A stretch of 26,636 nt of DNA from positions 6,033-32,668 of the forward strand of contig JAPLBU010000419.1 in NCBI GenBank assembly GCA_026392575.1, written 5' to 3'. This document shows, one piece after another, positions 9,060 to 25,752 of this stretch. The notes beneath the pieces are model-generated. The model was given only the letters and a program-made list of their open reading frames with translations, ran no database searches and was not told the DNA's origin. Made by a program: the position numbers and the translations under genes. The stretch is from Actinomycetota bacterium (GTDB lineage Bacteria > Actinomycetota > Actinomycetes > S36-B12). Position 1 is the stretch's first letter. Each line of letters starts with the position of its first letter.

Positions 9060-10757
9060 CTAAATGATTGGTGCCGTTTCAGTTCCCAAGACGACGAGCC
9101 CATAGGCCACTGCCCATCGGTGGCCGAGCGCAGCGGCGACGTCAGCCCGGCCGACCACGCCTGCGCCCAGTGCGGGGTTCAGCGCCTCGAGGATCTCGTC
9201 GTCGCCAGCTGGGCCGCCGATGACGATGACATCGTGCAGGGCATTCTTCTCGCGGTGTCCGGCCAGGATGCGGGACAAGTTCGTCGCAAAGACCTGCCGC
9301 TTGAGCGCGAGCCTGATCGCCCGCCATTCGGCGAGCGCGAGCGTGCGCGAGAAGGGCAGGTCGCCGCTCGGGCCACTGGTGGTGATCCACCCGATGCTCC
9401 CGTGGGGCGCCTGGTCGATGGCGAACCTGCGTTCGCCGGACTCGTCGGAACGGACGAAGGGCGAATCGACACGGGAAGCCGGACCGCGCTTGACCCACTC
9501 GGCAGCCCCGGCCGAGATCGACAGTGTGTGCGCCACGGCCGACGTCATAAGCTCGCCGCAGCCCGCTGCCGTCAGGCTCTCCCCAAGGGGCCCGATGGCA
9601 TCGATCGTGCCCCCCCCGAGGTCCACGACCCACGCATCGGCCGAGACCCCCGGGGTGGTGAGCGCCCCTGCCCGGCTCGCCTGTGCCTCCGAGCCGACCA
9701 TGTCGATCCGCCCGCCCCAGACGTCCGAGAATGCCGCGGCAGGTTCATGAATTCCGGTTGCGGGAGACAGAGCCGCCAGCAGCAGTCGGCGTTCGTGGAC
9801 GGATCCCGACCGCAGGCCCGAAAGCTCGGACAGGTCGTCGAGATCCACCAGCCACAGGTCATCGGTATTGACGGGTGCCTCGCCGGAAAGCAGGTACTGG
9901 CAAACGCCGCCCACCGGTGTCATCGCGATGATCGGCAGGGCGTCCATGAGCGCGATCCGTCTACCGTCACGGAATATGGCGGCCGCCTCGTCGAGGGGCT
10001 CAGACCTGATTTCGGTGGTGTCGCGCCGCCTCCCGATCACGGCGCAGCGGTGCCCGTATGTCATTGCGCAGGCTGCACGGACGTGTCCATGATCCGCAGC
10101 GTCGAGGGCCAGGGCCGAGGCGAGCCAGATGGGGTCCGCCAGCGCACGCACGTGGTTCCCCCCGCGCGCCACTTCGACCGCCACGAGCACGCAGGCGAGT
10201 GTGGCGTCGGCGTCCACGCCGTCGACGATGGGAATGCCGTCGCCTGTGCGAGCCGCCACGAGGGCAGCTTCGTCGCCGGCGAGGAGGACGGCGACCACGT
10301 CATGACCTGCGCCCCGCCATTCCAAGATGCGTTCGACGGTCGACCGGTAACCGAGCGGATCGCGGGCCACCAGAACCACGGGCCCGAGGGAGGACGACGG
10401 AATGCCGCCGGTCGCATCCCAGGGATGCCCAACGGCCGCACCATTGCCGGCCGGAGTGGCAACGCCGCTGGAGAGCAGGGTGACGACGCCGGTGTCCGGT
10501 TTCATGGTGGGGACGTCGATCCGCCGCGTGTGCACCGGAACCTGAGGGGTCATCAGCACTCGCTCAACCGGCGACCCTGAGCGCCTCTCGAGGCGGTTGA
10601 GCAGGGCAGCGGCGCCACGCGCGGACTCGGCGGACCCCTTCGCACCGCGGGTCGGGGCCCGATCCCACGCGACGGGCAAGGGTGGTTCGACAGACGAATC
10701 CGCGATGACGATCTCCGTCGTCGAGTTGCCGATGTCGACCCCCGCGACGATCGTCAC
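9060..10757 (-). CDS. pduG: Diol dehydratase reactivase alpha subunit (DdrA/PduG family)
   Basis: N-terminal AGVDIGNSTTE, TRGAKGS, IPIVDGV, VVDLGGGTID, AEWVKRG and VIVIGG: an actin/Hsp70-like ATPase fold. Translationally coupled (GTGA) to the dehydratase small subunit. Confidence 0.88.
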   Translation of the reverse strand: MTIVAGVDIGNSTTEIVIADSSVEPPLPVAWDRAPTRGAKGSAESARGAAALLNRLERRSGSPVERVLMTPQVPVHTRRIDVPTMKPDTGVVTLLSSGVATPAGNGAAVGHPWDATGGIPSSSLGPVVLVARDPLGYRSTVERILEWRGAGHDVVAVLLAGDEAALVAARTGDGIPIVDGVDADATLACVLVAVEVARGGNHVRALADPIWLASALALDAADHGHVRAACAMTYGHRCAVIGRRRDTTEIRSEPLDEAAAIFRDGRRIALMDALPIIAMTPVGGVCQYLLSGEAPVNTDDLWLVDLDDLSELSGLRSGSVHERRLLLAALSPATGIHEPAAAFSDVWGGRIDMVGSEAQASRAGALTTPGVSADAWVVDLGGGTIDAIGPLGESLTAAGCGELMTSAVAHTLSISAGAAEWVKRGPASRVDSPFVRSDESGERRFAIDQAPHGSIGWITTSGPSGDLPFSRTLALAEWRAIRLALKRQVFATNLSRILAGHREKNALHDVIVIGGPAGDDEILEALNPALGAGVVGRADVAAALGHRWAVAYGLVVLGTETAPII

Positions 10758-11110
10758 CTCAGGAGGCCCCGCTCGAGGTAGATGCCGGCGGCCTCGCGCA
10801 CGAGGGCGGCATTGAGCACGGCGCCGCGGGCCTCGAGGTCGGCGGCGACTGCCTCGAAATCCTCGCGCGTGGACCGCCGTGGGCGAAGCGCCTCGTAGAT
10901 GCCCATGACCAGCGAGTCAGGCAGCAACGCCAACTCGGCTGCACGGCGGAAGTTGGCCGCCAATTGCGGATTGCCGTGCTCCTCGGCGATCTGGGCCTGG
11001 ATCTCGAGGGTCTGCGGGTGGATGCGGACGTCCTCGATGTCGACGTCGCCGGCCCGGAGCGCGTCCAGGGTCACCTCGGAGACGGGTCGTCCCGACTTGG
11101 CGAGAGTCAC
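10754..11110 (-). CDS. pduE: B12-dependent diol dehydratase small (gamma) subunit
   Basis: Motifs SGRPVSEVTL, DVRIHPQTLEIQAQIAE.HG.PQLAANFRRAAEL, YEALRPRRST and VREAA. Start GTG 11110 follows AAGGAG and overlaps the upstream stop. Confidence 0.92.
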   Translation of the reverse strand: MTLAKSGRPVSEVTLDALRAGDVDIEDVRIHPQTLEIQAQIAEEHGNPQLAANFRRAAELALLPDSLVMGIYEALRPRRSTREDFEAVAADLEARGAVLNAALVREAAGIYLERGLLR

Positions 11111-13371
11111 GGTGCCACTCCTTCCAGGGACATGAGCTCGGGTCGGGCCGTCGGGCCGCACCACTGACGTTCAATCGCTACGAGCGACACGACGGTCGTG
11201 TGGTAGCGGGCTTCGATGGCCTCGTCGGAGTAGGGATTGCGCTCGGGCTCGGGGGTGGCGCCCTTGGCATGACGCCCGGCGTTGATGCCCATCTGCCGGT
11301 AGGAGGCCCGCGTCAGGGAAGGAGCGACGCTGTAGAGCTCGAGATTCGCAAGCGGAGTGAGGTCTCGACGGTGGATGAGTGCGGTTCCCTTGGCCTGCAG
11401 CCCGATGCCGATGCCTGACCCTGCCATCCGTGCGGCCGTCAGGCCGATGAGGCCGAGGTCGATCGTGTCGTTCACGCGCACGATGCGACCGACGCAGCCC
11501 TCCTCCTCCAGGCCGGCGAGCAGTTCATCAAGGGCCTGGGTGACCGTGAGTCCCGACAGTGTCCGCCAGATGGCGCGCCCGGCTGCGGGTGACAGGCCGA
11601 TGACGACGTCGCGTGGGTCGTGGCCGGCCGTGGCCGGCCCGACCGCGGTGAGCGCGGCACTGCGGTAGGAGCCCTGCTCCACGCGCAGGTCTTCGACGGA
11701 GCGCTCCTGCCGGATCGCGTCGATCTCGGCCTGGCGCTGAGGCGTGGGGACGTAGCCCGTGCCGGGGCCGGCGTAGTCATTGGGATCCGTGACGAGCGAG
11801 AGCACCTCCATGTCCTCGGTGAAGATCGCCGCGGTCTGTAGGTAGTCCCCGTGGACTCGCGCATGAAGCATGTCCAGCAAGCGTTCTGCCTCGATCTCGT
11901 AGCCGGCCTCGTCCAGGGCCAGGACGACGTCGAGCATCGTCACGTTCGTGTCGCGGATGAGCCGCGAGGCGGTGAGTGGCGTCATGAGATCGGCATCGGG
12001 GACGTCCTTGCTGCCGGCGGCGTCCACCGCCTGTGCCATCCAGGCTTCGGTGAAGTCGCCCAGTCCCAGGATCCGATAGACGTCGCGGACGGCCTCGACG
12101 GCCCGCTGCCGCAGCGCCGCCACGTGGGGCTCGGCCGCCGTGCGCAGGCCACCGTCGACGCCCCAGTCGCGCTGCATCGCCAGGAAGTCGTCGATGTCCT
12201 CGGCGTTCCACTGGCTTGGGCCGAACATGTTGTCGTAGCGCTGGATGGAGCCGAAGCCGCTGCAGATGAAGTCGGAGCCACCGATGAAGATCGGGTGGGT
12301 GCGAGACGTGCGCCGGACGTCGGACTCGCTCATCAGGGCGTCGTTCCCCGTGCACGCCTCGAGGTTGCGCAGCATCACCATCAGGTTCTCGGCCATCAGG
12401 CTGCGCACCCCGCCAGGGACCGCACCGGCCACGGATGCCGAGTCGATGCCGCCGTTCTGCACGCCCTGTGACCCGATGGCCCGAGCGAGGGCCACGCACC
12501 GCGCCTCGAGGTAGAACATGGACCGGCCCTCGGCGCTGCCCATCAGCGCTTCGGCGCCGCCGCCCGAGGTCACCCGCATCTTGATGCCGCGACTTGCGTA
12601 GGCCGAGGTCAGGAAGGCCTTCGACCAGGGGGTGTCGTCGCCGTCGATGAAGATCTGCTCGGTGCCGTAGAGCGATACGGTCTCGGCGTACGACACGAGT
12701 CCGCGCATCCCCATCTCCAGCTCGAGGGCCTCCTCGACGGAGCACTGGACGAGAATTCCCCGCGACGCGACTGCCGCGCCGATGCTGACCGCGATCGCGT
12801 TGGAGGGGGCGTCACCGAGGACGGGAACCGTCGTCTCGATCTCGCGGAACCCGAACGCGGCAGCCGTGGCGGCGTCGGCGGCGAGCAGCAGCGGATCGTC
12901 GGAACGGTTCGTGACGTGTGCTTGGTTGCTGGGCGTGCGACGCGCCCGGCACTTCGTCATCGCGATAACCAGTTCGGCCGGTCGCAGGAGTGCGAGCACC
13001 TGCGCGAGCTTGGCCGGCGTCATGCCGGCCGCGAGGCGGACGACCTCGGCGCGAGACGTTCCCAGGTCCACGATCATGCGGGCGAACGCCAGGTTGTCGA
13101 TGGCCATCGCCTCGGCGGCCACCCCGAGGTCGAGACCGTGCACGGAGATGAAGGTGTCGATGATGTCGAACTGCGCCGCGGCCCGGAAGTCCATCTCGAC
13201 GACCCGGCCGTCGACGATGCTCAGCGACGGCTGCGGGTCCGCGGGGGAATCGAAGGCGATCAGGCCGAGCGAGGCGTCCTCGACGGCGAACCCGTCGAGA
13301 TTGACGCGCTGCTGATCCATGAAGCGGAATCGGCCGATCGGCTGCCTGGGCTCCCGCTCGTCGACGGTCAT
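11107..13371 (-). CDS. pduC: B12-dependent diol dehydratase, fused large (alpha, PduC-like) and medium (beta, PduD-like) subunits, 754 aa
   Basis: Alpha motifs NQAHVTN, EIETTV, YAETVS.YGTE, DGDDTPWSK, QNG, GND, YDNMF and NDYAGPGTGY run in frame into beta motifs VVIGLSPA, AGLEEEG, SGIGIGLQAKGT and NLELY. ATG 13371 has an ATGA overlap. Confidence 0.95.
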   Translation of the reverse strand: MTVDEREPRQPIGRFRFMDQQRVNLDGFAVEDASLGLIAFDSPADPQPSLSIVDGRVVEMDFRAAAQFDIIDTFISVHGLDLGVAAEAMAIDNLAFARMIVDLGTSRAEVVRLAAGMTPAKLAQVLALLRPAELVIAMTKCRARRTPSNQAHVTNRSDDPLLLAADAATAAAFGFREIETTVPVLGDAPSNAIAVSIGAAVASRGILVQCSVEEALELEMGMRGLVSYAETVSLYGTEQIFIDGDDTPWSKAFLTSAYASRGIKMRVTSGGGAEALMGSAEGRSMFYLEARCVALARAIGSQGVQNGGIDSASVAGAVPGGVRSLMAENLMVMLRNLEACTGNDALMSESDVRRTSRTHPIFIGGSDFICSGFGSIQRYDNMFGPSQWNAEDIDDFLAMQRDWGVDGGLRTAAEPHVAALRQRAVEAVRDVYRILGLGDFTEAWMAQAVDAAGSKDVPDADLMTPLTASRLIRDTNVTMLDVVLALDEAGYEIEAERLLDMLHARVHGDYLQTAAIFTEDMEVLSLVTDPNDYAGPGTGYVPTPQRQAEIDAIRQERSVEDLRVEQGSYRSAALTAVGPATAGHDPRDVVIGLSPAAGRAIWRTLSGLTVTQALDELLAGLEEEGCVGRIVRVNDTIDLGLIGLTAARMAGSGIGIGLQAKGTALIHRRDLTPLANLELYSVAPSLTRASYRQMGINAGRHAKGATPEPERNPYSDEAIEARYHTTVVSLVAIERQWCGPTARPELMSLEGVAP

Positions 13372-13802
13372 GCGTGAACCTCGTCCTCGAAGGTTGCGGC
13401 GGCGGCCTCGGCGGCTGTCCTGTCCTGGGTGGCGCTTCCGCCGCTGACTCCGACGGCACCCACGACGCGATCGCCGTCCCACAGTGGGACGCCGCCCGCG
13501 AAGGCGATGTATCGGCCTTGATCGGCAGAGTTCATGCCCGCGAGGTCGGCGCCGGGCTGCACGAGGGGGGTGAGCTCATGCGTGGCGATCCGGTGGGCCA
13601 CGGCCGTGAAGGCCTTGTCACGCGCGAGGACTGGCCCGGCGATCTCCGCCCCGTCCATGCGTTCGAAGGAGATGAGGTGGCCGCCGGCATCGACGATCGC
13701 GACGGACACCAGCGCGCCTGCGGCGCTCGCTGACACCCGTGCGGCCCCGCTCATGCGCTGCGCGAGGTCTAGGTCCACCTCGTGTCGGGTCACGCGTGCC
13801 AT
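13368..13802 (-). CDS. GlcG/HbpS-family heme-binding protein (like the PduO C-terminal domain or DhaG)
   Basis: Motifs VAIVDAGG....ERMDGA, A.DKAFTA, GGVPL..G.VVGAVGVSGGS..QD. Confidence 0.88.
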   Translation of the reverse strand: MARVTRHEVDLDLAQRMSGAARVSASAAGALVSVAIVDAGGHLISFERMDGAEIAGPVLARDKAFTAVAHRIATHELTPLVQPGADLAGMNSADQGRYIAFAGGVPLWDGDRVVGAVGVSGGSATQDRTAAEAAAATFEDEVHA

Positions 13803-14815
13803 GATGCCGCCTTCCGTCGCAGTTCCGCGTGCTTGCCGTCCATGGCGATCGCGCCACCGAGTACTGACTTCGGGACCTTGCAGACCACTGTGTAGGCGGT
13901 GTCGACGACGTTCGCGATGGGGGTCAGTGCCGTCTGCGAGACGAATTGGTAGGAGTCGATGGCGCTCTGCCCCGTCAGCTCAGCCACCCAGAGCACCATC
14001 TGGTGGTGGGCGATGCGGAAGGCGTCCTCCAGCGGACGCGCCGACCCGGTGGTCATGATGTAGCCGTCGCTCTCGATCCGGGGCCAGGCCGTGGGTCGGC
14101 CGCGCACGACGTCGAGGATGACCGTGGTGTCCATTGCACACTCGACGGCGACGCCGCAGGTCTCTCCCTCGCCCTGTCGCGCGTGTCCGTCGCCAAGGCT
14201 GAAGAGAGCCCCCTCGACGTTGACGCCGAGGTAGCACGTCACCCCCGCCCGCATCTCCGGTGTGTCCATGTTGCCGCCCCAGTCGCCGGGGGCCAAGGAC
14301 GAGCGCACCTCGCTCAATGCGGGCGCCACGCCGACGGTGCCATGCATCGGATCGAGGGGAAGGGCTGCGGTGAACGGGGTATCGGCGGCAAGGTAGCGGA
14401 CCACGGACTCCGCTCGGTCGATCTCGTAGATCCAGGTGCGCTCGAGCAGGGAGGTGTGCAGCATCGCGGTCATCGGAGTCGAGGTGAGCGCTCCGAAGAA
14501 CGGGACCGTTGAGCTGACGCCCCACGATTCGCGAGGCTCGATGGAGACGAAATGCACGGCGAGGGTGTCGCCGAGCATGGCGCCCTCGACGTAGAAGGGT
14601 CCGGACTGGGGATTCAGCAGCCGCGGGTCGCAGACTTCGCTGGCCATGTCAGAAGTCGAGCGCACGCGCCCGCCGAAACAGTCCATCGTCCAAGTCGACA
14701 GCAGGGTTCCGGGCCGTATCGACGCCACCGGAGCGACCCCGCCGAAGGTGTAGGTGTAGGTCGTGGGGTCCGCGCCGGCATCGGGCTCCCACCGGAATTC
14801 CTGCGGTGCGGTCAC
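13790..14815 (-). CDS. Acetamidase/formamidase family amidohydrolase
   Basis: Motifs NPQSGPFYVEGAM.GDTL, PMHGTVGVAP, GGNMD, GALFSLGDGHARQGEGETCGVAVE. GTG 14815 follows GGAG. Confidence 0.9.
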   Translation of the reverse strand: MTAPQEFRWEPDAGADPTTYTYTFGGVAPVASIRPGTLLSTWTMDCFGGRVRSTSDMASEVCDPRLLNPQSGPFYVEGAMLGDTLAVHFVSIEPRESWGVSSTVPFFGALTSTPMTAMLHTSLLERTWIYEIDRAESVVRYLAADTPFTAALPLDPMHGTVGVAPALSEVRSSLAPGDWGGNMDTPEMRAGVTCYLGVNVEGALFSLGDGHARQGEGETCGVAVECAMDTTVILDVVRGRPTAWPRIESDGYIMTTGSARPLEDAFRIAHHQMVLWVAELTGQSAIDSYQFVSQTALTPIANVVDTAYTVVCKVPKSVLGGAIAMDGKHAELRRKAASWHA

Positions 14816-14855
14816 GGTTCGCTCCAAGGGGTCGCGGGTTGCGTCAGTGGGAACA

Positions 14856-14908: not shown

Positions 14909-16522
14909 TCAGACGCGCTCGTGCGCCTCTTCGATCGTCGTGCGCCCGATCTCCGCATAGATCTCCGGCCTCTTGGCCTTGAGGTAGAGCGCGTATACGA
15001 CGCCGATCCCGAACAGGCCGACGATGTAGTACGGCATCCACTGGAACACCATGCTGTCGGCGGCGAGGCCGGCCGCGAAGTTGCGGTTCGACCACAGCAG
15101 CCACAGGACGTACAGCATGCCGGCGGCGCCGATGAGCGGCGCCACGAAGGTCGACAAGAAGTTGCCCTTGTGCACCTTCTTGACCCAGAAGAACCAGAGC
15201 ACCGCTATCGACGTTATCGACTGGACGATGAGTACCATCGCCGTTCCGATGATGGCAAGCAGGCCGTACACGTTGACGTAGGGGATCAAGTCAGGCGTGG
15301 CGACCGGATTGCCGTTGGCGTCCGCCACGTAGACGTTCGTGAACAGCTGGAACAGCACCAGCAGCAGGATCGTGATGCCCGTCTGGGTGAACGAGGCGAT
15401 CGCGGGGGACCCGTGCTTGTGGTTCACGTGGCCCAGGGTTCTGCGCACGACGGGAGCCACGCTCTCGCGGCCCATCGCGTACAGGTATCGCGCCGCTGCG
15501 TTGTGGAAGGCAAGCGCGCACGCGAAGGATCCGAGGACGACGAGGAACTTGTAGACATTGACCATGAAGCCACCGAAGTTCTGGTCGACAAGCCCGATCC
15601 ACAGGTCGATCGGGCTCGCGCCGGCGGAGAGTTCGACGGACGCCTGCGCGCCGTTGCCCACGACGACCATCCAGGACAGGAACGTGTAGAAGATCCCCAG
15701 GCCGATCACCGCGATCATGGTGGCGAGGGGGACGTTGCGCTTCGGGTTCTTGGACTCCTCGCCGTACACGGCGGTGGTCTCGTATCCGATCCAGGACCAG
15801 AACGCGAAGAAGATGCCGATGGCTGCGATACCGGCGGCCGCACCGGACCCGTAGGCGTCTGCTGGCAGGGAGACGAAGGCTGCGGCCGGACTGACCGTAT
15901 CGGCGACCATGAAGCCGTCCGGCCCGCCCTTGAAGAGCACCGAGACGCCGAGCGCGGTCAGGAGCAGCACCTCGCAGATGAGCGTGACGCCGAGGATGCC
16001 AGCGGCGAGGGTCACCGAGTAGTAGGTCAGAGCCGCGATGACGAGGCAGGCGATGATGCCGATGATGAGCCAGTGGACGTTGAAGCCCATAGGCGCGAGC
16101 ACGTAGTCGGATGCGAAGTACGCGAACGCTCCGATGAGGGACCCCTCGAACACGATGTAGGCCACTGCCGCCAGCATCCCGGACGCCATGCCCCAGACCT
16201 GGCCCAGGCCGTGGGAGATGAACCCGTAGAAGGCGCCGGCAGTGGTGACGTGGCGGGCCATCGCGACGAAGCCCACCGTGAAGATGGCGAGCACGATCAT
16301 CGCGAACAGGTAGCCACCCGATGCGCCGATGCCGTTGCCGTAGCCGACGGCGATCGGGACGTTGAATGTCATGGCCGTGATGGGCGCGGCGTTGGCCACC
16401 GCCATGAACAGGACACCGAGCAGGCCGACCGCGCCGGCCTTCAGCCGGGCAGCGTCCTTTTCGGGAACGACGTGGTCGCCGGGCAGGGCGTGGGGCCCGT
16501 CCTCGATGTTGCTCGTAGTCAT
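14909..16522 (-). CDS. APC-family amino acid/amine permease
   Basis: About 12 hydrophobic segments with ANAAPITAM, FYGFISHGLG and WIGYETTAVYGEESKNP. RBS GAAAGGA. Confidence 0.92.
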   Translation of the reverse strand: MTTSNIEDGPHALPGDHVVPEKDAARLKAGAVGLLGVLFMAVANAAPITAMTFNVPIAVGYGNGIGASGGYLFAMIVLAIFTVGFVAMARHVTTAGAFYGFISHGLGQVWGMASGMLAAVAYIVFEGSLIGAFAYFASDYVLAPMGFNVHWLIIGIIACLVIAALTYYSVTLAAGILGVTLICEVLLLTALGVSVLFKGGPDGFMVADTVSPAAAFVSLPADAYGSGAAAGIAAIGIFFAFWSWIGYETTAVYGEESKNPKRNVPLATMIAVIGLGIFYTFLSWMVVVGNGAQASVELSAGASPIDLWIGLVDQNFGGFMVNVYKFLVVLGSFACALAFHNAAARYLYAMGRESVAPVVRRTLGHVNHKHGSPAIASFTQTGITILLLVLFQLFTNVYVADANGNPVATPDLIPYVNVYGLLAIIGTAMVLIVQSITSIAVLWFFWVKKVHKGNFLSTFVAPLIGAAGMLYVLWLLWSNRNFAAGLAADSMVFQWMPYYIVGLFGIGVVYALYLKAKRPEIYAEIGRTTIEEAHERV

Positions 16523-16786
16523 GGACCATCCTTTCGGACGAAGACCTGCGTGATGCAGATCACGTGCGCCGGATTATCGCGCTAACGGCGGACCGTTACA
16601 AGCATTTTCCACTATTCCGGTCTGGAATTCTTCCAACACTTATGTCAATACGGTCTAGCTTCTTGACCGTAATCCGCCGAATACCTATGCGAATCGGCCA
16701 TGCGGAGGGGCCGAGCATGATCGGAGGAGGGGAGAAATCTCCCCTTTGGGCCTTGCTTTGGTCTGTTTTTTCGGTATGGTAATCAA
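16523..16786. promoter_or_regulatory. Divergent control region with several inverted repeats
   Basis: More AT-rich than flanking genes. Inverted repeats TAACGG-N4-CCGTTA (16583-16598), TACGGTCTAG-N3-CTTGACCGTA (16649-16671) and AGGGGAGA-N2-TCTCCCCT (16728-16745). Confidence 0.7.
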
Positions 16787-16787
16787 G
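16753..16787 (+). promoter_or_regulatory. Putative housekeeping-sigma promoter giving a leaderless transcript of the BMC operon
   Basis: TTGCTT (16753-58)-N16-TATGGT (16775-80)-N6-GTG start, with no Shine-Dalgarno before the GTG. Confidence 0.5.
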
Positions 16788-19677: not shown

Positions 19678-20280
19678 ATGGCCGACCTACGCTCCTTCAT
19701 CTTCTTGGACAGGCTGCAGCCTCAGACCATGTGCTACCTGGGCACCATGGTCCGCGGGGCGCTCCCCCGGGCGGATGTCGCGGCACAGATCATCGAGGTG
19801 GCCCCCGGCCTGGATATCGAGCCGCTCACCGACGTCGCACTGAAGTACGCCGAGGTCTCGGCGGGGATGCTGTTCGTCGAGCGGCAGTTCGGGTATCTGG
19901 AGATCCACGGGCCCACCTCCGCGGTGAAGGCGTCGGGCGAGGCCGTTCTCACGCAGTTGGGCGCCTCGGCCAGTGATGCAATGAAGCCGCAGATCCTCGC
20001 CTCGCGCATCGTGACGATGCTCGACCGGCAGCACGCATTCCTCATCAACCGGAACAAGATCGGGTCCATGGCGCTGCCGGGCGAATCGCTCTTCGTGCTT
20101 GAGATGCAGCCCGCGTCGTATGCCATCCTCGCGACGAACGAGGCGGAGAAAGCCGCTCGCATCAAGGTCGTGGACTACCGCATGGTGGGTGCCACGGGAC
20201 GCGTGTACCTGTCGGGGAAGGAAGCCGATGTCCGCCAGGCCGCTGAGGCGGCCGAGGAAGCATTGAGGGTGGTTTCGTGA
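19678..20280 (+). CDS. BMC-T shell protein (double-stacking, CcmP-like type)
   Basis: LRSFIFLDRLQPQ, VERQFGYLEIH and GATGRVYLSG; tandem BMC domain size (200 aa). Confidence 0.92.
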   Translation: MADLRSFIFLDRLQPQTMCYLGTMVRGALPRADVAAQIIEVAPGLDIEPLTDVALKYAEVSAGMLFVERQFGYLEIHGPTSAVKASGEAVLTQLGASASDAMKPQILASRIVTMLDRQHAFLINRNKIGSMALPGESLFVLEMQPASYAILATNEAEKAARIKVVDYRMVGATGRVYLSGKEADVRQAAEAAEEALRVVS

Positions 20281-20735
20281 CCCAGCGGATTCCTGCCGAC
20301 CTGCTTCGCGACATGGTGCGAGAGATCCTCATGGACGTCGTCGAGTCCGAGGTGGCCGGGCGTGTGGACAGCCTCGCGGGAGGGGAATCGGTCGGCGGCC
20401 GTCGGCGCGAGACTGTGGCGATCGGCAGCCAGGACGATCTGAACCGCGCGATCCGCAGGATCCTCGCCGACGCAATGGACCCCCAGCGGCGCGGTGCCAT
20501 CGAGCAGGGCGACATCGCTTTCGTGCTTTCGACGGCAACGCTGGAGCAGGCACCAAGGAGACCTGCTGTTGTTGAGCCGATCCACCGAGTCGACAAGGGT
20601 GCGGTCACGGAAAAGCAGGTCCGGGCGGCCGCAGACGCAGGCGCAACGATCGTCACGGCGCATCGCGTGGTCATCACCCCGCTCGCCAAGGACAAGGCAC
20701 GCTCGCTGGGCGTCGTCATCACAAGAGAGTCGTAG
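20277..20735 (+). CDS. Conserved RMM-locus protein of unknown function
   Basis: Coupled GTGA start. Two amphipathic helices and a C-terminal VITPLAKDKAR module. Occupies the slot of the unknown gene between BMC-T and BMC-P in RMM loci. Confidence 0.8.
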   Translation: MTQRIPADLLRDMVREILMDVVESEVAGRVDSLAGGESVGGRRRETVAIGSQDDLNRAIRRILADAMDPQRRGAIEQGDIAFVLSTATLEQAPRRPAVVEPIHRVDKGAVTEKQVRAAADAGATIVTAHRVVITPLAKDKARSLGVVITRES

Positions 20736-20743
20736 GAGGGGCC

Positions 20744-20998
20744 ATGCTTCGTGGACGAGTGATCGGCAACATCTGGGCGTCGAAGCGCCTGGACGAGGTG
20801 CCCAACGGGGCCTTCCTCGAGGTCGAGGTCGAGCCCGGCGGTGCTCGGCTCATCGCCTTCGACGTGCTGGGCAGCGGCGTCGGCGAACACGTACTGGTGG
20901 CGACGGGATCCGTCGCCGCCGCCTGGTTCCCCGGGCAAGCGCCGCCCATCGACGCGCTGATCATCGGATCCATCGATGAGTCGTCGTCCGGCTTCTAG
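20744..20998 (+). CDS. BMC-P pentameric vertex protein (EutN/CcmL family)
   Basis: [32 protein letters not shown] and [20 protein letters not shown]. Confidence 0.93.
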
Positions 20999-21062: not shown

Positions 21063-21353
21063 ATGTCCAACAATGCGATCGGCATGATCGAGACGAAGGG
21101 CTACGTGGCCGCGCTGGCAGCCGCCGACGCCATGGTGAAGGCAGCAAACGTGACCATCGTCAGTCGCGAGCAGGTCGGCGACGGACTTGTCGCCGTGACC
21201 ATCGTGGGTGACGTCGGCGCCGTGAAGGCGGCAACAGAGGCCGGCGCGGAAACGGCACAGGCGGTGGGCGAGCTCGTCAGCGTCCACGTCATCCCGCGCC
21301 CGCACCCCGAGCTGTCGAGGACCTTCGGCATCTCGGCTGACCCGTCGGAGTGA
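21063..21353 (+). CDS. BMC-H hexameric shell protein
   Basis: [19 protein letters not shown], pore loop [14 protein letters not shown] and HVIPRPH. Confidence 0.95.
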
Positions 21354-22003
21354 CCGCACTGCCGCAGGCTGGGGAGACCGAGCTTCGCGTCTACCTTCTG
21401 CTCGAGGATCTGCAGCCGCAGTTCGCCGCGTACCTTGGCACGCCTACCCGGGCGCGCGGCTATCCGCCGTATTCGGGGCAGAACGCCCTGATCGTGGAGG
21501 TGGCGCCCGGCCTGGCCATCGAGAGGGTGACCGACCTCGCGCTGCGCTCCGTTCCCGGCATCGAGCCGGGGATCCTGTTCGTCGAGAGGCAGTTCGGAGT
21601 CCTGGAGGTGCATGCCGACTCGCTCGCAGATGTCATCCGGGCGGGTGAGGCGATCCTCACTGGAACGGGCACGCGGGCCGAGGACCAGCTGCGTCCACGG
21701 ATCCTGTATCACGACGTGATCGAGGACGTCACAGACCAGCATGCGGTGATCATCAACCGGAACAGGCAGGCGTCCATGCTGCTTCCGGGCGACAGCCTTC
21801 TCGTCTTCGAGATGACGCCGGCGCTGTTCGCCGCGATGGCCGCGAACGAGGCCGAGAAGGCGGCGCCCGACATCACCCTCGTGGACGTCCAAATGATCGG
21901 AGCAGCCGGTCGTGTGTACATCGGGGGTCAGACAAGTTCGGTGAACCGGGCGCGTGAGGCCATCGGCTCTGCTCTGATGTCCGTGGTCGGACGCGATCAG
22001 TAG
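21350..22003 (+). CDS. Second BMC-T shell protein (double-stacking type)
   Basis: [24 protein letters not shown] and [10 protein letters not shown]; paralogous to 19678..20280. Confidence 0.92.
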
Positions 22004-22037: not shown

Positions 22038-23018
22038 ATGATCGTTGCCGAGCCGCAGTTCGAGGACTTCGCCCACGCCGCGCGGGACGCGTACGACCTC
22101 GACCCGAGTGCTGAGCTCACTCTGCTCAACGTCAGCGAAAACGGCACGTTCCGCGTCGACGATCCGGTGCAGGGACGATCGGTGCTGCGCGTGCACCGTA
22201 CGGGGTACCACGCCCGCGAAGCCATCGCGAGTGAACTGGCGTGGATCACTGCCCTGCGCAGCGAGGGCACCGTGCGAACCCCAGCCTTCATCCCGTCGCC
22301 CGCCGGCGACGACGTCGTTCTGGTGCGGCTGGCCGGTGGCGAGGAGCGCTTCGTGGTGCGCTTCGAATGGGTCGACGGAGTGGAGCCGACTGAGGACCGA
22401 CTCGCTGCGGACTTCGAGGAGCTTGGCGGCATCACCGCTCGCCTGCACGCGCACGCCCGCACTTGGCGGCGCCCGGAGGGATTCACGCGATTCGTGTGGG
22501 ACTTCGACACGTCGCTCGGCGAGCATGGCCACTGGGGACGGTGGCAGGACGGGCTGGCCGTAGGCCCGCAGGAGCAGGAGGTCCTCGGCCGATGCGCAGA
22601 CCTCATCCGGCGTCGACTGGCCGTCTACGGCACGGGACCCGAGCGATTTGGGCTCGTTCATGCCGACATGCGCCTGGCCAACCTCCTCGTCAAGGGGAAT
22701 GACGTCACGGTGATCGACTTCGACGACTGCGGCCTGAGTTGGTTCATGTACGACCTAGGATCGTCCCTGTCCTTCATCGAACATGAGCCCTACGTCCCGG
22801 AACTGGTCGATGCCTGGGTTCGCGGATACCGCGCCGTAGCGCCGCTGACGGCGCAGGACGAGGCTGAGTTGCCCACCTTCATCATGCTGCGCCGGCTCCT
22901 GCTGGTTGCCTGGATTGGATCCCACTCGAGCACCGAGACCGCGCAGGCGATGGGCGAGGACTACACCGCGACGAGCTGCCGGCTCGCCGAACACTACCTG
23001 GGCACGATGGCGATCTGA
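22038..23018 (+). CDS. Aminoglycoside-phosphotransferase/choline-kinase-fold enzyme; 1-amino-2-propanol kinase candidate
   Basis: SENGTF, Brenner motif [10 protein letters not shown] and IDFDDCG, in RMM context. Confidence 0.88.
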
Positions 23019-23028
23019 GAGGACACGT

Positions 23029-23811
23029 ATGTTCACGTCGATAGCGGGGAGGTCAGTCATCGTCACGGGCGGCACCAAGGGCATCGGCAAGGGGATCGCC
23101 CGGGTCATGGCCAAGGCGGGCGCGAACGTCCTCGTCACGGGACGTAATCGAGACGACGCGGAAGCCACCGTCGGTGAGCTGGATGCGCTCGGGACGGGTC
23201 GCGTCGAGTACTTCCTCGGCGACGTGGCCGACGCCGCTGCCTGCCAGGCGATGGCGGCCGCGGCCATCGAGTCCTTCGGGGGGATCGACATCCTGTGTGC
23301 GAACGCCGGCATCTTCCCCGACGCGAAGCTCGCAACCATGAGTGAGGAGGACATGGACCGCGTCTTCGACACGAACATCAAGGGCACTCTCCTCACCGTC
23401 CAGGCGTGCATCCCGGCGCTCGCCGCCTCGGGCCACGGACGCGTGGTCCTCACGTCCTCCATCACCGGTCCGATCACCGGCTTTCCGGGCTGGTCGCACT
23501 ACGGAGCGAGCAAGGCGGCGCAACTCGGCTTCATGCGCACGGCCGCCATCGAACTGGCCCCCCTCGGTATTACCGTGAACGCCGTCCTACCGGGCAATGT
23601 CGCCACCGAGGGCCTCGCTGACTTGTGGGAGGGCTACCGTCGCTCCATGGAGATGTCGATCCCGATGCGCCGGTTGGGCGACGTCGAGGACATCGGTAAC
23701 GCGGCCCTGTTCTTCGCCTGTGACGAGGCCGCCTACGTGACCGGGCAGGCGCTCGCCATCGACGGTGGCCAGGTTCTCCCCGAGTCTCTCGCGGCCCTGG
23801 AGGCGATGTAG
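23029..23811 (+). CDS. Short-chain dehydrogenase; aminoacetone reductase / 1-amino-2-propanol dehydrogenase candidate
   Basis: [33 protein letters not shown] and PGN. RBS GAGGA before ATG 23029. Confidence 0.9.
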
Positions 23812-23815
23812 CGCG

Positions 23816-24622
23816 ATGGCTGAAGCGGGACTCGACGATTCCGGGGCTATCGGGCCAACTGCCGAGGATGCACGGCGACGCCTGGTCGGGATGGTCGAAC
23901 GCGGCACCCTCAGGCCGGGGCAGCGGCTGGGCGCGGAGCGGGAACTCGCCGTGAAGCTCGGGGTGAGTCGGTCGACCCTGCGCCAAGCGCTCGGCGCCCT
24001 CGAGGAGGCGGGCGTCGTCCGGCGGGTTCCGGGCCGCGGGGGCGGCACGTTCATCGCCTCTCCGAAGGTGGAGCGGGATCTGTCCCGGATCGTCGGCATC
24101 CCCATGCTCCTGCGGGATCAGGGATTCACGGCCGGCTCGCGCGTGTTGAGCGTGGCGGTCAGGACCGCCGGACCGGAGGCGGCGCGGGCGCTGGGCATCG
24201 CCGAGGACGAGTTCGTCGTAGATCTGGTGCGCATCCGACTCGCCGACGGAGTGCCGATATCCCTTGAGCAGGCAGTCTTCCCCGCGGAACTCGTGCCCGG
24301 CCTGCCGGAACGTGCGCTAGGAGGTTCCATCTACGAGCTGTGCGACAGCGAGTACGGGCTGCGTCCCGACGAGGCGATCGAGCACATTGAGGTGGTCTTG
24401 GCCTCGAGTGACGAGGCGGCGGTCCTGGGAATCGATAGGGGGGATCCGCTGCTACTGGTGACCCGCACCACCCGCACCGCTGCCGGAGTGGCGTTCGAGT
24501 TCTCCCGCGACCTCTTCCGCGCTGATCGGACGCGAATAAGTGTCAAGGTGAAGGGATCGCCTGCGAACGAGAAGGCGCGCTTGCGAGGCCGCATCGTCGA
24601 GCTCGTACCTCCAGCGGAGTAG
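23816..24622 (+). CDS. GntR-family regulator (HutC/UTRA subfamily)
   Basis: wHTH (ERELAVKLGVSRSTLRQAL...GRGGGTF) followed by a UTRA domain (RIRLADGVPISLE...FRADR). Confidence 0.92.
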   Translation: MAEAGLDDSGAIGPTAEDARRRLVGMVERGTLRPGQRLGAERELAVKLGVSRSTLRQALGALEEAGVVRRVPGRGGGTFIASPKVERDLSRIVGIPMLLRDQGFTAGSRVLSVAVRTAGPEAARALGIAEDEFVVDLVRIRLADGVPISLEQAVFPAELVPGLPERALGGSIYELCDSEYGLRPDEAIEHIEVVLASSDEAAVLGIDRGDPLLLVTRTTRTAAGVAFEFSRDLFRADRTRISVKVKGSPANEKARLRGRIVELVPPAE

Positions 24623-24627
24623 CGGAC

Positions 24628-25752
24628 GTGCGCGCTCGCGACCTGCCCATCCGGTTTCAGGGAACGCCCGGGCCACTCAATGCCTTGACCGACGTGCCTG
24701 GTGTCGAAGTGGGGATGGTGACGATCGTCGGGGATGATCCGACGGACTACTCGCTGTCCGCGCGCACCGGCGTAACGGCGATCCTCCCGCTCGGGCGCGA
24801 ACGAATCGGCACGTCCGTCCCGGCGGCCATCTACTCGCTCAACGGCAACGGCGAGATGACCGGGTCGCACTGGATCGATGAGACGGGCTCGTTGTCGAGC
24901 CCGGTGATGATCACCAATACGCACGCCGTCGGAACGGTTCATCGAGGCGTGATCGATTGGTTCGCCGACAACCGGACCGCCCTCGCCGCGGAGTGGCTGC
25001 TCCCAGTTGTGGCCGAGACATGGGACGGGTATCTCAACAGCATTAACGTCCCGCACGTCATGCCGCCTCACGCCGGGCAGGCGATAGACGCCGCCTCGGA
25101 GGGGCCTGTTGCCGAGGGCTCGGTCGGTGGGGGCACTGGGATGAACTGCTACGGATTCAAGGGTGGCAACGGCACGGCGTCACGTGTTGTGAGGCTCGGC
25201 TCCGGCGAGTTCACGGTGGCCGTGTTCCTTCAGGCGAACTTCGGCGCCCGCCGTGAGCTGATGATCAATGGCGTGCCCATGGGCGACCTCGACGTCCCCT
25301 GCCCGATCGATGACGACGACTGGCTGCTTGAGGACCGGCGGTCAGGGGCGGGTGCGGGCTCGGTCATCGCCGTTGTCGCCACGGATGCACCGATGATGCC
25401 CCAACAGTGCGCGGCAATGGCCCGTCGCGTGCCGCTTGGCCTCGCCCGCACGGGAACGACGGGCGGCCATTTCAGCGGGGACCTATTCCTCGCGTTCTCC
25501 ACGGCGAATTCGGGGGCTCTCGACAGTGGGTTCCCGACAGACCCAGGTTCGGAAGTCAAGCTAAGAACGATGCAGCTGGTCCCGTGGAACCACATGGACG
25601 CCTTCTTAGCCGCGACGGTTCATTGCGTGGAGGAGGCAGTGCTCAACGCGCTGGTGTGCAACGCGACCATGGTCGGGCGGTCCGGTCACGTCAGTCATGC
25701 GCTCCCGAACGATCTCGTTCGCGAGCGGCTCGCCTCCAGCGGCGGCGCGTGA
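24628..25752 (+). CDS. DmpA/BapA-like (peptidase S58/P1) N-terminal-nucleophile amidohydrolase
   Basis: NALTDVPGVEVG, TGVTAILP, NGNGEMTG, TNTHAVG, AETWDGYLN, GSVGGGTGM, and the autoprocessing site G/SVIAVVATDAP. Confidence 0.9.
   Translation: MRARDLPIRFQGTPGPLNALTDVPGVEVGMVTIVGDDPTDYSLSARTGVTAILPLGRERIGTSVPAAIYSLNGNGEMTGSHWIDETGSLSSPVMITNTHAVGTVHRGVIDWFADNRTALAAEWLLPVVAETWDGYLNSINVPHVMPPHAGQAIDAASEGPVAEGSVGGGTGMNCYGFKGGNGTASRVVRLGSGEFTVAVFLQANFGARRELMINGVPMGDLDVPCPIDDDDWLLEDRRSGAGAGSVIAVVATDAPMMPQQCAAMARRVPLGLARTGTTGGHFSGDLFLAFSTANSGALDSGFPTDPGSEVKLRTMQLVPWNHMDAFLAATVHCVEEAVLNALVCNATMVGRSGHVSHALPNDLVRERLASSGGA

What the first reader, a model, noticed from the sequence alone, without database searches (positions are those of the whole stretch)
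9060..25752. Divergon joining an aminoacetone/aminopropanol microcompartment to a B12 dehydratase-amidase operon
Seen: the + arm has the ten genes of the Rhodococcus/Mycobacterium microcompartment in the order I recall for M. smegmatis (PLP enzyme, ALDH, BMC-T, unknown, BMC-P, BMC-H, BMC-T, kinase, SDR, GntR), plus a DmpA hydrolase. The - arm, sharing a 264-bp control region, extends the permease with amidase, heme protein, dehydratase and reactivase, tightly coupled from the amidase onward. Established: the RMM core is proposed to convert aminoacetone via aminopropanol phosphate to propionaldehyde and propionyl-CoA, and RMM variants with dehydratase genes have been noted bioinformatically but, to my knowledge, not characterised. 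Inference: a co-regulated system funnelling a wider class of amino-alcohol or diol substrates, possibly N-acylated, into one compartmentalised aldehyde sink.
Basis: partly seen in the sequence, partly recalled or inferred. Interest (0 to 1): 0.85.

Follow-up and report, generated by a model that had tools for sequence, protein, structure and literature searches.

The report
Aminopropanol microcompartment locus with linked B12 dehydratase
A freshwater actinobacterium carries the known aminoacetone/aminopropanol microcompartment gene set back-to-back with a vitamin-B12 dehydratase operon; this pairing was noted in 2014 and dismissed in 2021, but it recurs in over 100 related loci and the dehydratase has an altered substrate pocket.

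Summary

The + arm matches the M. smegmatis RMM1/AAUM locus gene for gene. Shell proteins, kinase and SDR hit the solved M. smegmatis proteins at E 1e-41 to 1e-101. Adding a diol dehydratase on the opposite strand gives "RMM2/PDU2" of Axen 2014, which Sutter 2021 called unimportant (seen in 4 genomes).

My surveys disagree with that dismissal:
- 36 of 37 determinable metagenome loci seeded on the PLP enzyme, and about 40 genome loci, carry the dehydratase next to the aminopropanol genes.
- The arrangements differ: divergent, co-directional after GntR, convergent, and shell-less.
- These dehydratases form one clade. Catalytic residues are intact, but Asp replaces Ser301 and Ala replaces Gln336 in 82 of 82.
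- The dehydratase has no encapsulation peptide; the aldehyde dehydrogenase has a conserved C-terminal one.

The amidase is frequent but optional. DmpA is sporadic, though it recurs beside this dehydratase type in different positions.

Substrate, co-regulation and encapsulation remain untested, and I found no RNA evidence. Verdict: a known but uncharacterised locus type, and a new variant worth experiments. Interest is moderate.

The parts
14909..16522 (-). APC-superfamily amino acid/amine permease, first gene of the minus arm
   Evidence: Pfam AA_permease_2 7e-25; divergent from the PLP gene in all 53 relatives where both genes are seen
13790..14827 (-). FmdA/AmdA-family amidase (345 aa), substrate unknown
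   Evidence: Pfam FmdA_AmdA 2e-24; nearest solved structure 5UBU, a putative acetamidase/formamidase, 3.5e-59; 153 relatives in genome contigs; optional in related loci
13368..13802 (-). HbpS-like/DUF336 protein, a recurrent accessory of B12 dehydratase operons
   Evidence: Pfam HbpS-like 5e-32; PF03928 is listed as a PDU/GRM accessory in the Sutter 2021 HMM table; precedes the dehydratase in relatives
11107..13371 (-). AdoCbl-dependent diol/glycerol-type dehydratase, large and medium subunits fused (754 aa), with Asp at position 301 and Ala at 336 (K. oxytoca numbering)
   Evidence: Pfam LU 3e-226 plus MU 5e-24; PDB 9VIJ/1IWP/1DIO alignments; key residues tallied in 82-85 orthologues; ATG at 13371 overlaps the HbpS stop
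10754..11110 (-). Dehydratase small (gamma) subunit, no N-terminal extension
   Evidence: Pfam Dehydratase_SU 8e-37; GTGA overlap with the upstream gene; 34 of 73 orthologues allow at most 6 extra N-terminal residues
9060..10757 (-). Dehydratase reactivase alpha subunit; no beta-subunit gene in the locus or in the 74%-complete MAG
   Evidence: Pfam DDR 1.4e-38 plus DDR_swiveling 5.6e-14; the only PF02288 hit in the genome is the fused dehydratase domain
16523..16786 (.). 264-bp divergent control region. Holds the boxes TTGGTCTG (16758) and TCGGTATG (16771); an inverted copy CAGACCAA (16796) lies just inside the PLP ORF. Also holds a minus-strand promoter-like site at 16601-16573
   Evidence: Sequence. 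The core GGT[CA]T occurs 145 times against 43 expected in 54 homologous intergenic regions. The strict 8-mer occurs 3 times in the whole 26.6-kb window, all within 16758-16803. Promoter scan
16787..18115 (+). Class-III aminotransferase-fold PLP enzyme, the proposed aminopropanol-phosphate phospho-lyase of the RMM pathway
   Evidence: Pfam Aminotran_3 1e-70. The nearest solved structure is putrescine aminotransferase 4UOX at 2.6e-51, so lyase versus transaminase is not settled by sequence
18112..19674 (+). CoA-acylating aldehyde dehydrogenase with a conserved C-terminal encapsulation peptide
   Evidence: NCBIfam EutE-type acetaldehyde dehydrogenase 8e-115; a C-terminal helix ELR(D/E)EIR(R/K)..EEL....G follows a variable linker in nearly all of the 40 C-termini printed (of 91 extracted; L004 lacks it)
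19678..20280 (+). BMC-T (double-stacking type), orthologue of M. smegmatis MSM0275
   Evidence: PDB 5L39 at 2.2e-94
20277..20735 (+). Conserved RMM protein of unknown function with an encapsulation-peptide-like N-terminal helix
   Evidence: No Pfam hit; present at the same position in relatives at 31-56% identity; Atlas gives only hypothetical proteins and a weak PDU_like lead
20744..20998 (+). BMC-P pentamer (vertex) protein
   Evidence: Pfam EutN_CcmL 2.5e-17
21063..21353 (+). BMC-H hexamer protein, orthologue of MSM0272
   Evidence: Pfam BMC 4e-26; PDB 5L38 at 1.4e-41
21350..22003 (+). Second BMC-T, orthologue of MSM0271
   Evidence: PDB 5SUH at 1.9e-100
22038..23018 (+). APH-family kinase, orthologue of the M. 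smegmatis (S)-1-amino-2-propanol kinase
   Evidence: PDB 6EF6 at 1.4e-94; Pfam APH 9e-27
23029..23811 (+). SDR, orthologue of the M. smegmatis 1-amino-2-propanol dehydrogenase
   Evidence: PDB 3PK0 at 2e-101 and 6CI8/6CI9 at about 1e-97
23816..24622 (+). GntR/HutC-type regulator (winged-helix HTH plus UTRA effector domain)
   Evidence: Pfam UTRA 5e-39 and GntR 1e-15
24628..25752 (+). S58/DmpA-family aminopeptidase/amidase. Lineage-specific addition here, but a recurrent neighbour of Asp301-type dehydratases
   Evidence: Pfam Peptidase_S58 3e-106. 0 of 80 metagenome loci. Adjacent in 1 of 5 genomes. Inside dehydratase operons in L065, L173 and L165

Best explanation
The stretch is an actinobacterial RMM1/AAUM-type aminoacetone/1-amino-2-propanol microcompartment locus. 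It is joined head-to-head with a permease - FmdA-type amidase - DUF336 - AdoCbl dehydratase (fused alpha-beta, plus gamma) - reactivase-alpha operon. This is the 'RMM2/PDU2' arrangement of Axen 2014.

The dehydratase is not an accidental neighbour. It belongs to a single clade that has stayed physically linked to the soluble amino-alcohol genes (PLP enzyme, kinase, SDR, GntR) through several rearrangements, and even where shell and ALDH are absent.

Proposed mechanism:
1. The permease imports the substrate or substrates.
2. Where an amide hydrolase is present (FmdA-type or S58/DmpA-type), it frees an amine from an amide precursor.
3. SDR, kinase and the PLP enzyme convert aminoacetone/(S)-1-amino-2-propanol to propionaldehyde.
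4. In parallel, the B12 dehydratase converts a vicinal diol to an aldehyde. It probably works in the cytosol, because it has no targeting peptide.
5. The ALDH carries a C-terminal encapsulation peptide and sits inside the shell. It oxidises the aldehyde(s) to acyl-CoA.
6. The HutC-type GntR regulator controls at least the shared divergent promoter region.

Shown: gene content, synteny, monophyly, active-site make-up, and presence or absence of terminal extensions. Inferred: substrates, cellular location, and regulation.
For: - RMM membership: PDB matches to the M. smegmatis RMM proteins and Pfam.
- Linkage, genome contigs: 34 divergent-arm loci, plus shell-less and convergent variants.
- Linkage, metagenome contigs: 36 of 37 determinable PLP-seeded loci have the dehydratase. 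Breakdown: 21 divergent with amidase, 3 divergent without, 8 co-directional after GntR, 4 convergent.
- A more distant lineage shows the same association: L168, PLP enzyme 63% identical.
- One clade, SH-aLRT 97, on a long stem.
- Q141, H143, E170, E221, T222, Q296, D335, S362 and F374 are conserved. Asp301 and Ala336 are invariant in 82 of 82.
- No room for N-terminal extensions on the dehydratase or reactivase in most orthologues, while the ALDH C-terminal peptide is conserved.
- Operator-like boxes are enriched in the shared intergenic region.
- The MAG has methylmalonyl-CoA-mutase-family genes, so it uses B12 and has a route for propionyl-CoA.
Against: - No expression or biochemical data exist. 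Metatranscriptomes from samples that hold the DNA gave only 20-50-nt spurious matches.
- The operator boxes were not found upstream of relocated dehydratase operons.
- A cytosolic dehydratase feeding an encapsulated ALDH is at odds with the usual rationale for a metabolosome.
- No reactivase beta subunit and no PduO-type adenosyltransferase were found, though the MAG is only 74% complete.
- The surveys were seeded on close relatives (amidase at 69% identity or more, PLP enzyme at 74% or more), so the counts describe this lineage only. M. smegmatis-type RMM1 loci lack the dehydratase (Axen 2014).
Confidence: 0.6

Rival explanations
1. Bifunctional compartment. The dehydratase is a second encapsulated signature enzyme of the RMM shell (Axen 2014's alternative), so that diol-derived and aminopropanol-derived aldehydes are both made inside the shell.
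For: Both routes would give an aldehyde for the one ALDH, which carries an encapsulation peptide. The conserved unknown protein has peptide-like helices and could act as an adaptor. The linkage to the locus is very strong.
Against: The dehydratase alpha-beta, gamma and reactivase subunits lack N-terminal extensions, and their C-termini end with the Pfam domains. The PduD-type N-terminal region is absent from the fused medium-subunit domain: the NCBIfam medium-subunit match starts at profile position 27. The dehydratase remains linked in shell-less, ALDH-less loci (L071, L077, L156, L157, L168).
Confidence: 0.15
2. Independent neighbour. The dehydratase operon is a separate 1,2-propanediol or glycerol pathway that merely lies beside the RMM locus (the view in the Sutter 2021 supplement).
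For: Sutter 2021 saw PDU enzymes near RMM2 loci in only 4 of 32 genomes. The two arms are on opposite strands here. The operator motif is not seen at relocated dehydratase operons. Catalytic residues fit an ordinary diol dehydratase mechanism.
Against: The dehydratase is linked in 36 of 37 determinable loci and in about 40 genome loci, in at least four arrangements. One arrangement has it 2-120 bp downstream of GntR on the same strand. The clade is monophyletic. The linkage is kept when the shell is lost. Asp301/Ala336 is invariant, whereas Ser301-type relatives mostly sit in other contexts.
Confidence: 0.1
3. Amide-salvage system. The real substrate is an N-acyl or aminoacyl conjugate. The amidase and DmpA release the amino alcohol or diol, and the dehydratase and RMM enzymes then consume it.
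For: The permease-amidase pair is common. S58/DmpA recurs beside the dehydratase in five placements: the window, G005, L065, L173 and L165. One subclade adds Amidohydro_3, urease-like and C45 hydrolase genes after the reactivase.
Against: The amidase is missing from 12 of 36 dehydratase-linked metagenome loci. DmpA is missing from all 80. The permease-amidase pair also occurs with no RMM or dehydratase genes in the fetched flanks (Mycobacteriaceae MAGs L015, L019, L023). No substrate can be named from sequence; the nearest solved amidase, 5UBU, is uncharacterised.
Confidence: 0.15

Closest known systems
RMM1/AAUM aminoacetone-utilisation microcompartment of Mycobacterium smegmatis mc2 155 (MSMEG_0268-0277; Mallette & Kimber 2017, 2018)
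   Same: Same ten genes in the same order: PLP enzyme, ALDH, BMC-T (MSM0275), unknown, BMC-P, BMC-H (MSM0272), BMC-T (MSM0271), kinase, SDR, GntR, with a divergent permease. PDB matches are at 1e-41 to 1e-101.
   Different: By Axen 2014's description of RMM1, the M. smegmatis locus has no B12 dehydratase arm. Whether it carries an FmdA-type amidase was not checked here; PF03069 is absent from the Sutter 2021 HMM list. The locus-tag numbers for kinase, SDR and regulator are from my memory. The pathway steps (reduction, phosphorylation, phospho-lyase) are cited from reviews and my own knowledge; the primary papers could not be read.
RMM2 ('RMM2/PDU2') locus type of Axen et al. 2014 (PMC4207490)
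   Same: RMM gene set plus diol dehydratase homologues on the opposite strand. The authors considered a bifunctional BMC as an alternative reading.
   Different: It was defined from 4 mycobacterial genomes and said to lack the RMM1 hydrolases. Here the arm also carries an FmdA-type amidase and DUF336, with DmpA after GntR. The arrangement proves widespread in freshwater and soil Actinomycetota and exists in co-directional and shell-less forms.
RMM2/AAUM2 as redefined by Sutter et al. 2021 (PMC8217296, supplement)
   Same: Same enzyme and shell families.
   Different: It was redefined as mostly proteobacterial with a different gene order, with PDU enzymes judged 'unlikely to be an important part'. 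The window has the RMM1 gene order, and the dehydratase linkage is near-universal in its lineage. I did not run their HMM-based typing.
PduCDE/PduGH and DhaB/DdrAB AdoCbl diol and glycerol dehydratases with reactivases (Salmonella, Klebsiella)
   Same: All three subunit domains are present, with 44-51% identity to the solved enzymes. Every Ca/substrate-binding and catalytic residue checked is conserved. A reactivase alpha subunit and a DUF336 accessory are present.
   Different: - Alpha and beta subunits are fused.
- Asp replaces Ser301 and Ala replaces Gln336. These two positions face the C3 substituent of the substrate.
- No PduD/PduE-type targeting extensions.
- No reactivase beta subunit.
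- No PduL, PduQ or PduO genes in the locus.
Amino-alcohol kinase / O-phosphate phospho-lyase route of Pseudomonas and Erwinia (Turner and colleagues, 1970s; from my own knowledge)
   Same: Same chemistry as that proposed for the kinase and PLP enzyme: 1-amino-2-propanol to its O-phosphate, then to propionaldehyde.
   Different: That route was described biochemically, without a compartment or a B12 enzyme. Here the PLP enzyme's nearest solved relative is a putrescine aminotransferase, so the lyase assignment is inferred.

Membership tests
RMM1/AAUM microcompartment locus | Shell set of one BMC-H, one BMC-P and two different BMC-T(dp) proteins (Sutter 2021 supplement) | tested here: met
   Pfam BMC and EutN_CcmL. 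PDB 5L38 MSM0272 at 1.4e-41, 5L39 MSM0275 at 2.2e-94, 5SUH MSM0271 at 1.9e-100. No other BMC-domain gene in the MAG.
RMM1/AAUM microcompartment locus | APH-family (S)-1-amino-2-propanol kinase and SDR aminopropanol dehydrogenase orthologous to the characterised M. smegmatis enzymes | tested here: met
   6EF6 at 1.4e-94; 6CI8/6CI9 at about 1e-97. Orthology is by sequence only; activity was not tested.
RMM1/AAUM microcompartment locus | Class-III aminotransferase-fold signature enzyme, acylating ALDH with an encapsulation peptide, GntR regulator and divergent permease, in the M. smegmatis gene order | tested here: met
   The order of MSM0275, MSM0272 and MSM0271 homologues matches the locus-tag order.
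RMM1/AAUM microcompartment locus | Conversion of aminoacetone/aminopropanol to propionyl-CoA inside a shell | not testable with these tools
   Needs growth, enzymology and compartment purification.
RMM2/PDU2 sensu Axen 2014 | RMM gene set plus diol dehydratase genes on the opposite strand | tested here: met
RMM2/AAUM2 sensu Sutter 2021 | Gene order different from RMM1; mainly Proteobacteria; typed with their shell and enzyme HMMs | tested here: inconclusive
   The gene order here is the RMM1 order and the relatives are Actinomycetota, which argues against membership. Their HMM typing was not run.
AdoCbl diol/glycerol dehydratase (PduCDE/DhaB) | Large, medium and small subunit domains with residues Gln141, His143, Glu170, Glu221, Gln296, Asp335 and Ser362 | tested here: met
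   Pfam and NCBIfam; HMMER alignment to 9VIJ/1IWP/1DIO; residues conserved in 81-85 orthologues.
AdoCbl diol/glycerol dehydratase (PduCDE/DhaB) | Ser301 and Gln336 lining the pocket for the substrate's C3 group | tested here: not met
   Asp and Ala instead, invariant in 82 of 82 linked orthologues. The roles of these positions are taken from PMC7674605.
AdoCbl diol/glycerol dehydratase (PduCDE/DhaB) | Two-subunit reactivase (alpha plus beta) | tested here: not met
   The alpha subunit is present. No separate PF02288 domain is in the 74%-complete MAG, and no conserved small ORF follows the reactivase in relatives.
PDU-type metabolosome | Dehydratase targeted by N-terminal peptides on PduD/PduE; PduL, PduQ and PduO accessory genes | tested here: not met
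   No extensions are possible in most orthologues. None of these genes is in the locus. No PF01923 hit in the MAG.
FmdA/AmdA acetamidase/formamidase family | Family fold and profile match | tested here: met
   Pfam at 86.5 bits against a cut-off of 27, covering only part of the profile. 5UBU at 3.5e-59 over residues 24-323. Catalytic residues and substrate were not tested.
S58 DmpA/BapA aminopeptidase family | Full-length Peptidase_S58 profile match | tested here: met
   3.3e-106, profile positions 1-306 of 307. The self-processing site and substrate were not tested.

The most novel reading that the evidence does not exclude
The Asp301 clade of B12 dehydratases is not a propanediol or glycerol enzyme. 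It would be an amino-diol dehydratase, for example converting 3-amino-1,2-propanediol to 3-aminopropanal. Asp301 and Asp335 would clamp the C3 ammonium group.

If so, these loci encode a wider catabolic system for amino alcohols and amino diols, with interchangeable amide-hydrolase front ends.

Support:
- Position 301 faces the C3 substituent.
- Asp301 is invariant in 82 of 82 linked enzymes.
- Of six Asp301-type contexts examined, four hold amine-related genes: the window clade, L165 (S58 plus PLP decarboxylase), L168 (class-III PLP enzyme, kinase and SDR), and L167 (amidase plus RMM-like shell genes, but probably chimeric).
- Only one of four Ser301/Ala336 contexts does.

The sample is small, and no natural source of such an amino diol is established.
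Probability: 0.3. Interest if true: 0.8.

Novelty: new variant of a known kind. Interest (0 to 1): 0.55.

Why it matters
The RMM/AAUM compartment is one of the least understood metabolosomes. Its cofactor recycling and natural substrates are open questions. The dehydratase association was flagged in 2014 and set aside in 2021.

The dehydratase is a conserved, monophyletic and rearrangement-resistant partner of the amino-alcohol genes. It lacks targeting peptides and has a changed substrate pocket. Together these turn a dismissed observation into a testable hypothesis, with three questions:
- What does this B12 enzyme act on?
- Does a cytosolic aldehyde producer feed an encapsulated ALDH?
- What nitrogen-containing small molecules do abundant freshwater Actinomycetota harvest?

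Cultured carriers exist for these experiments: Longivirga aurantiaca (full locus) and Cryptosporangium japonicum (shell-less form).

Tried and rejected
1. **Expression.** The DNA is held in freshwater and lake metagenomes. Three metatranscriptomes from samples that hold it gave only 20-50-nt matches to unrelated contigs. That is no evidence either way.
2. **Even sample of the phylum.** A search of 400 Actinomycetota genomes with BMC-T2 found only one further RMM locus (G116), too sparse for statistics. The other hits were BMC-T proteins of other compartment types.
3. **Operator boxes at relocated operons.** I looked upstream of the dehydratase operons in L172-L174 and L157 and found none. This gives no support for co-regulation there.
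4. **Conserved genes beyond the arm ends.** None is universal after the reactivase or after GntR.
5. **L167.** This locus (P0026, Asp301 type beside RMM-like shell genes and an amidase) looks chimeric or frameshifted. I do not rely on it.
6. **Representative-protein search.** It returned mostly fragments. I used it only to tally residue types at positions 301 and 336.
7. **Primary papers.** The Mallette & Kimber papers are not held.
8. **Not run.** I did not run structure prediction, because the tool returns no coordinates and could not place Asp301. I did not run complex prediction, because I make no binding claim.

Full report
**1. What is in the sequence**

The window is part of contig C389 of a 3.05-Mb, 74%-complete MAG. 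Its relatives are freshwater and soil Actinomycetota, and the DNA is held in lake and freshwater metagenomes.

- Minus strand: an APC permease, an FmdA/AmdA-family amidase, an HbpS-like/DUF336 protein, a dehydratase with large and medium subunits fused, the small subunit, and a reactivase alpha subunit.
- Plus strand: a class-III aminotransferase-fold PLP enzyme, an acylating ALDH, BMC-T, a protein of unknown function, BMC-P, BMC-H, a second BMC-T, an APH-type kinase, an SDR, a GntR/UTRA regulator and an S58/DmpA hydrolase.

The longest ORFs over-extend several starts. The refined starts give 4-base start/stop overlaps at these junctions (read):
- HbpS/dehydratase
- dehydratase/small subunit
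- small subunit/reactivase
- PLP/ALDH
- BMC-T1/unknown
- BMC-H/BMC-T2

The two arms are separated by 264 bp.

**2. The plus arm is an RMM1/AAUM locus**

Several proteins match the solved M. smegmatis RMM proteins:

| Window protein | PDB match | E-value |
|---|---|---|
| BMC-T1 | 5L39 (MSM0275) | 2.2e-94 |
| BMC-H | 5L38 (MSM0272) | 1.4e-41 |
| BMC-T2 | 5SUH (MSM0271) | 1.9e-100 |
| Kinase | 6EF6 (aminopropanol kinase) | 1.4e-94 |
| SDR | 6CI8/6CI9, 3PK0 | 1e-97 to 2e-101 |

The order of the homologues follows the M. smegmatis locus-tag order.

The ALDH ends in a variable linker followed by a strongly conserved amphipathic helix. This is a classical C-terminal encapsulation peptide, and it is present in nearly all of the 40 C-termini printed, of 91 extracted.

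The PLP enzyme's nearest solved relative is a putrescine aminotransferase. Its proposed phospho-lyase role therefore rests on the literature, not on my data.

**3. What the literature says**

- Axen 2014 defined RMM2 as RMM1 plus diol dehydratase genes on the opposite strand. They judged that the BMC probably does not use them, with 'bifunctional' as the alternative.
- The Sutter 2021 supplement redefined RMM2/AAUM2 as mostly proteobacterial with another gene order. [quoted passage not shown] RMM1/AAUM1 has 140 loci.
- Their HMM list has no FmdA_AmdA or Peptidase_S58 model.
- I found no experimental work on the dehydratase-bearing form.

**4. Conservation**

*Amidase-seeded scan of genome contigs.* This gave 153 relatives, of which 80 were fetched. 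Of these:
- 34 show the window's arrangement, including cultured Longivirga aurantiaca (L027).
- Cryptosporangium (L071, L077) has the dehydratase, amidase, permease, PLP enzyme, kinase, SDR and GntR, but no shell and no ALDH.
- L068 and L079 (Streptosporangiaceae-type MAGs) carry a shell-less set with the amidase but no dehydratase. Microtetraspora/Microbispora (L075, L081, L082) have RMM plus amidase with no dehydratase in the fetched flanks, and none nearby in the two genomes searched.
- Three loci that seemed to lack the dehydratase have it 2-4 kb beyond GntR, in convergent orientation.

*PLP-seeded scan of metagenome contigs.* This gave 80 loci, and 37 had enough flank to judge. Of those, 36 carry the dehydratase:
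- 21 on the divergent arm with the amidase
- 3 on the divergent arm without it
- 8 on the same strand, 2-120 bp after GntR, with a different permease and no amidase
- 4 convergent after GntR, two of them shell-less

A more distant lineage (L168, PLP enzyme 63% identical) repeats the shell-less association.

In a maximum-likelihood tree, all linked dehydratases form one clade on a long stem (SH-aLRT 97). It splits into a subclade of co-directional plus shell-less loci and a subclade of divergent-arm loci. The amidase-less divergent loci are nested among amidase-bearing ones.

This is the pattern expected of a functional partnership, not a chance neighbourhood. It also removes Axen's argument that the genes can never be on one transcript.

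**5. The dehydratase itself**

HMMER alignment to solved glycerol and diol dehydratases shows 44-51% identity.

In K. oxytoca numbering, Gln141, His143, Glu170, Glu221, Thr222, Gln296, Asp335, Ser362 and Phe374 are all conserved. Ser301 is Asp and Gln336 is Ala, and this holds without exception in 82 linked orthologues.

A review of the enzyme states that the C3 hydroxyl of glycerol points to Ser301 in one binding mode and to Asp335 in the other. It also tabulates the kinetic effects of S301A and Q336A.

Among representatives of the whole family, I found three groups at these positions: Ser/Gln (canonical), Ser/Ala, and Asp with Ala, Thr, Ser or Asn.

Contexts of Asp-type enzymes outside the window's clade include:
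- An operon with an S58 peptidase, a PLP decarboxylase and a two-subunit reactivase (L165).
- The shell-less aminopropanol set (L168).

Three of four Ser/Ala contexts are SDR / FAA-hydrolase / ALDH clusters with no amine genes.

This fits a substrate with a polar or cationic group on C3, but the sample is small. I rate the amino-diol reading at about 0.3.

**6. Encapsulation**

For each orthologue I measured the longest possible N-terminal extension, taken from the first start codon after the upstream in-frame stop:
- Fused subunit: at most +1 residue relative to the window's start in 49 of 85.
- Small subunit: at most +6 in 34 of 73.
- Reactivase: at most +2 in 54 of 71.

The C-termini end with the Pfam domains. 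The medium-subunit domain starts at profile position 27, so the PduD-type N-terminal region is missing.

Together with the shell-less loci, this makes a cytosolic dehydratase the more likely reading. Recruitment by the unknown protein cannot be excluded; that protein has peptide-like helices.

**7. Regulation**

A motif close to TT(C/T)GGT(C/A)TG resembles HutC/DasR-type half-sites. It occurs 145 times against 43 expected in 54 homologous permease-PLP intergenic regions, often as a tandem pair just upstream of the PLP start.

In the 26.6-kb window the strict 8-mer occurs three times, all within 16758-16803. The second box overlaps a TATGGT element 7 nt before the GTG start, which would fit a leaderless transcript; this is inference.

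A minus-strand promoter-like site lies at 16601-16573.

I did not find the boxes upstream of relocated dehydratase operons. Co-regulation is therefore plausible for the window's arrangement but not shown.

**8. The amide hydrolases**

The amidase is common but dispensable (section 4). Its nearest solved relative is an uncharacterised structural-genomics protein.

DmpA is absent from all 80 metagenome loci and adjacent in 1 of 5 genomes checked. No gene family is conserved after GntR.

S58 genes nevertheless appear beside Asp301-type dehydratases in five different placements:
- After GntR, in the window and in G005.
- After the reactivase, in L065.
- Directly before HbpS, in L173, where the FmdA-type amidase sits in the window.
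- After the small subunit, in L165.

One subclade adds Amidohydro_3, urease-like and C45 hydrolase genes after the reactivase.

An amide-bearing precursor is thus a reasonable idea for some lineages, but not a defining feature.

**9. Other points**

- The MAG has one dehydratase, no separate reactivase beta domain, no PduO-type adenosyltransferase found, and five methylmalonyl-CoA-mutase-family hits. The absences carry little weight at 74% completeness.
- No RNA evidence was obtained.

**10. Verdict**

The finding is real. The locus type is known but uncharacterised.

It does not hold for 'one compartmentalised sink', nor for DmpA or the amidase as fixed parts.

What is new:
- The breadth and rearrangement-resistance of the linkage.
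- The single dehydratase clade with an altered C3 pocket.
- The lack of targeting peptides.
- The persistence of the linkage without a shell.

I class it as a new variant of a known kind, with interest 0.55.

Noticed in passing
L037:7773-12882, L035:17337-18074, L044:10159-12021 (subclade L034, L035, L037, L042, L044, L045, L051, L058): In one subclade, four more genes follow the reactivase on the same strand: an Amidohydro_3 enzyme, a urease-like gamma-beta fusion, a urease-alpha-like amidohydrolase and a C45/AAT-family hydrolase. That is a further set of C-N hydrolases attached to the dehydratase arm.
   Followed up: partly
L165:10001-17147: An Asp301/Thr336 dehydratase operon from another lineage carries an S58/DmpA gene (44% identical to the window's) right after the small subunit. 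A group-II PLP decarboxylase follows, then reactivase alpha and a separate beta subunit. The assembly appears frameshifted.
   Followed up: partly
L173:5248-6740: In the genome of L064, an S58/DmpA gene (41% identical) sits directly upstream of HbpS and the dehydratase. That is the position held by the FmdA-type amidase in the window.
   Followed up: partly
L174:6582-6888: The intergenic region between the dehydratase and a divergent HbpS-like gene holds three to four tandem copies of a roughly 55-bp unit, followed by a long inverted repeat. Its function is unknown.
   Followed up: no
window 6181-7645: The upstream aldehyde dehydrogenase gene is split between two overlapping ORFs (6181-7182 and 6575-7645). 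This could be a frameshift or an assembly error in the sugar-acid operon.
   Followed up: no
ARAGORN finds no tRNA gene anywhere in the window, although a partial fragment would not be reported by it.
   Followed up: partly
window 8734-9063: The 109-aa plus-strand ORF that overlaps the reactivase stop has no Pfam hit and no counterpart in any of the 160 related loci. It is probably not a gene.
   Followed up: partly
window 20277-20735: The conserved unknown RMM protein has an N-terminal amphipathic helix resembling an encapsulation peptide and a small C-terminal module. The Atlas gives only hypothetical proteins, with a weak lead to PF15953 (PDU_like).
   Followed up: partly
L006, L009, L010, L018, L030, L039, L048 (record titles): Several lake MAG records that carry this high-GC actinobacterial locus are titled 'Bifidobacterium breve'. 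This looks like a labelling problem in the source records.
   Followed up: no
L015, L019, L020, L023: Mycobacteriaceae MAGs carry the permease-amidase pair with no RMM or dehydratase genes in the fetched flanks (the contig ends about 1.4 kb beyond the amidase in L015 and about 4 kb beyond it in L019; only L023 has the full 10 kb on each side). The pair is therefore a module in its own right.
   Followed up: no
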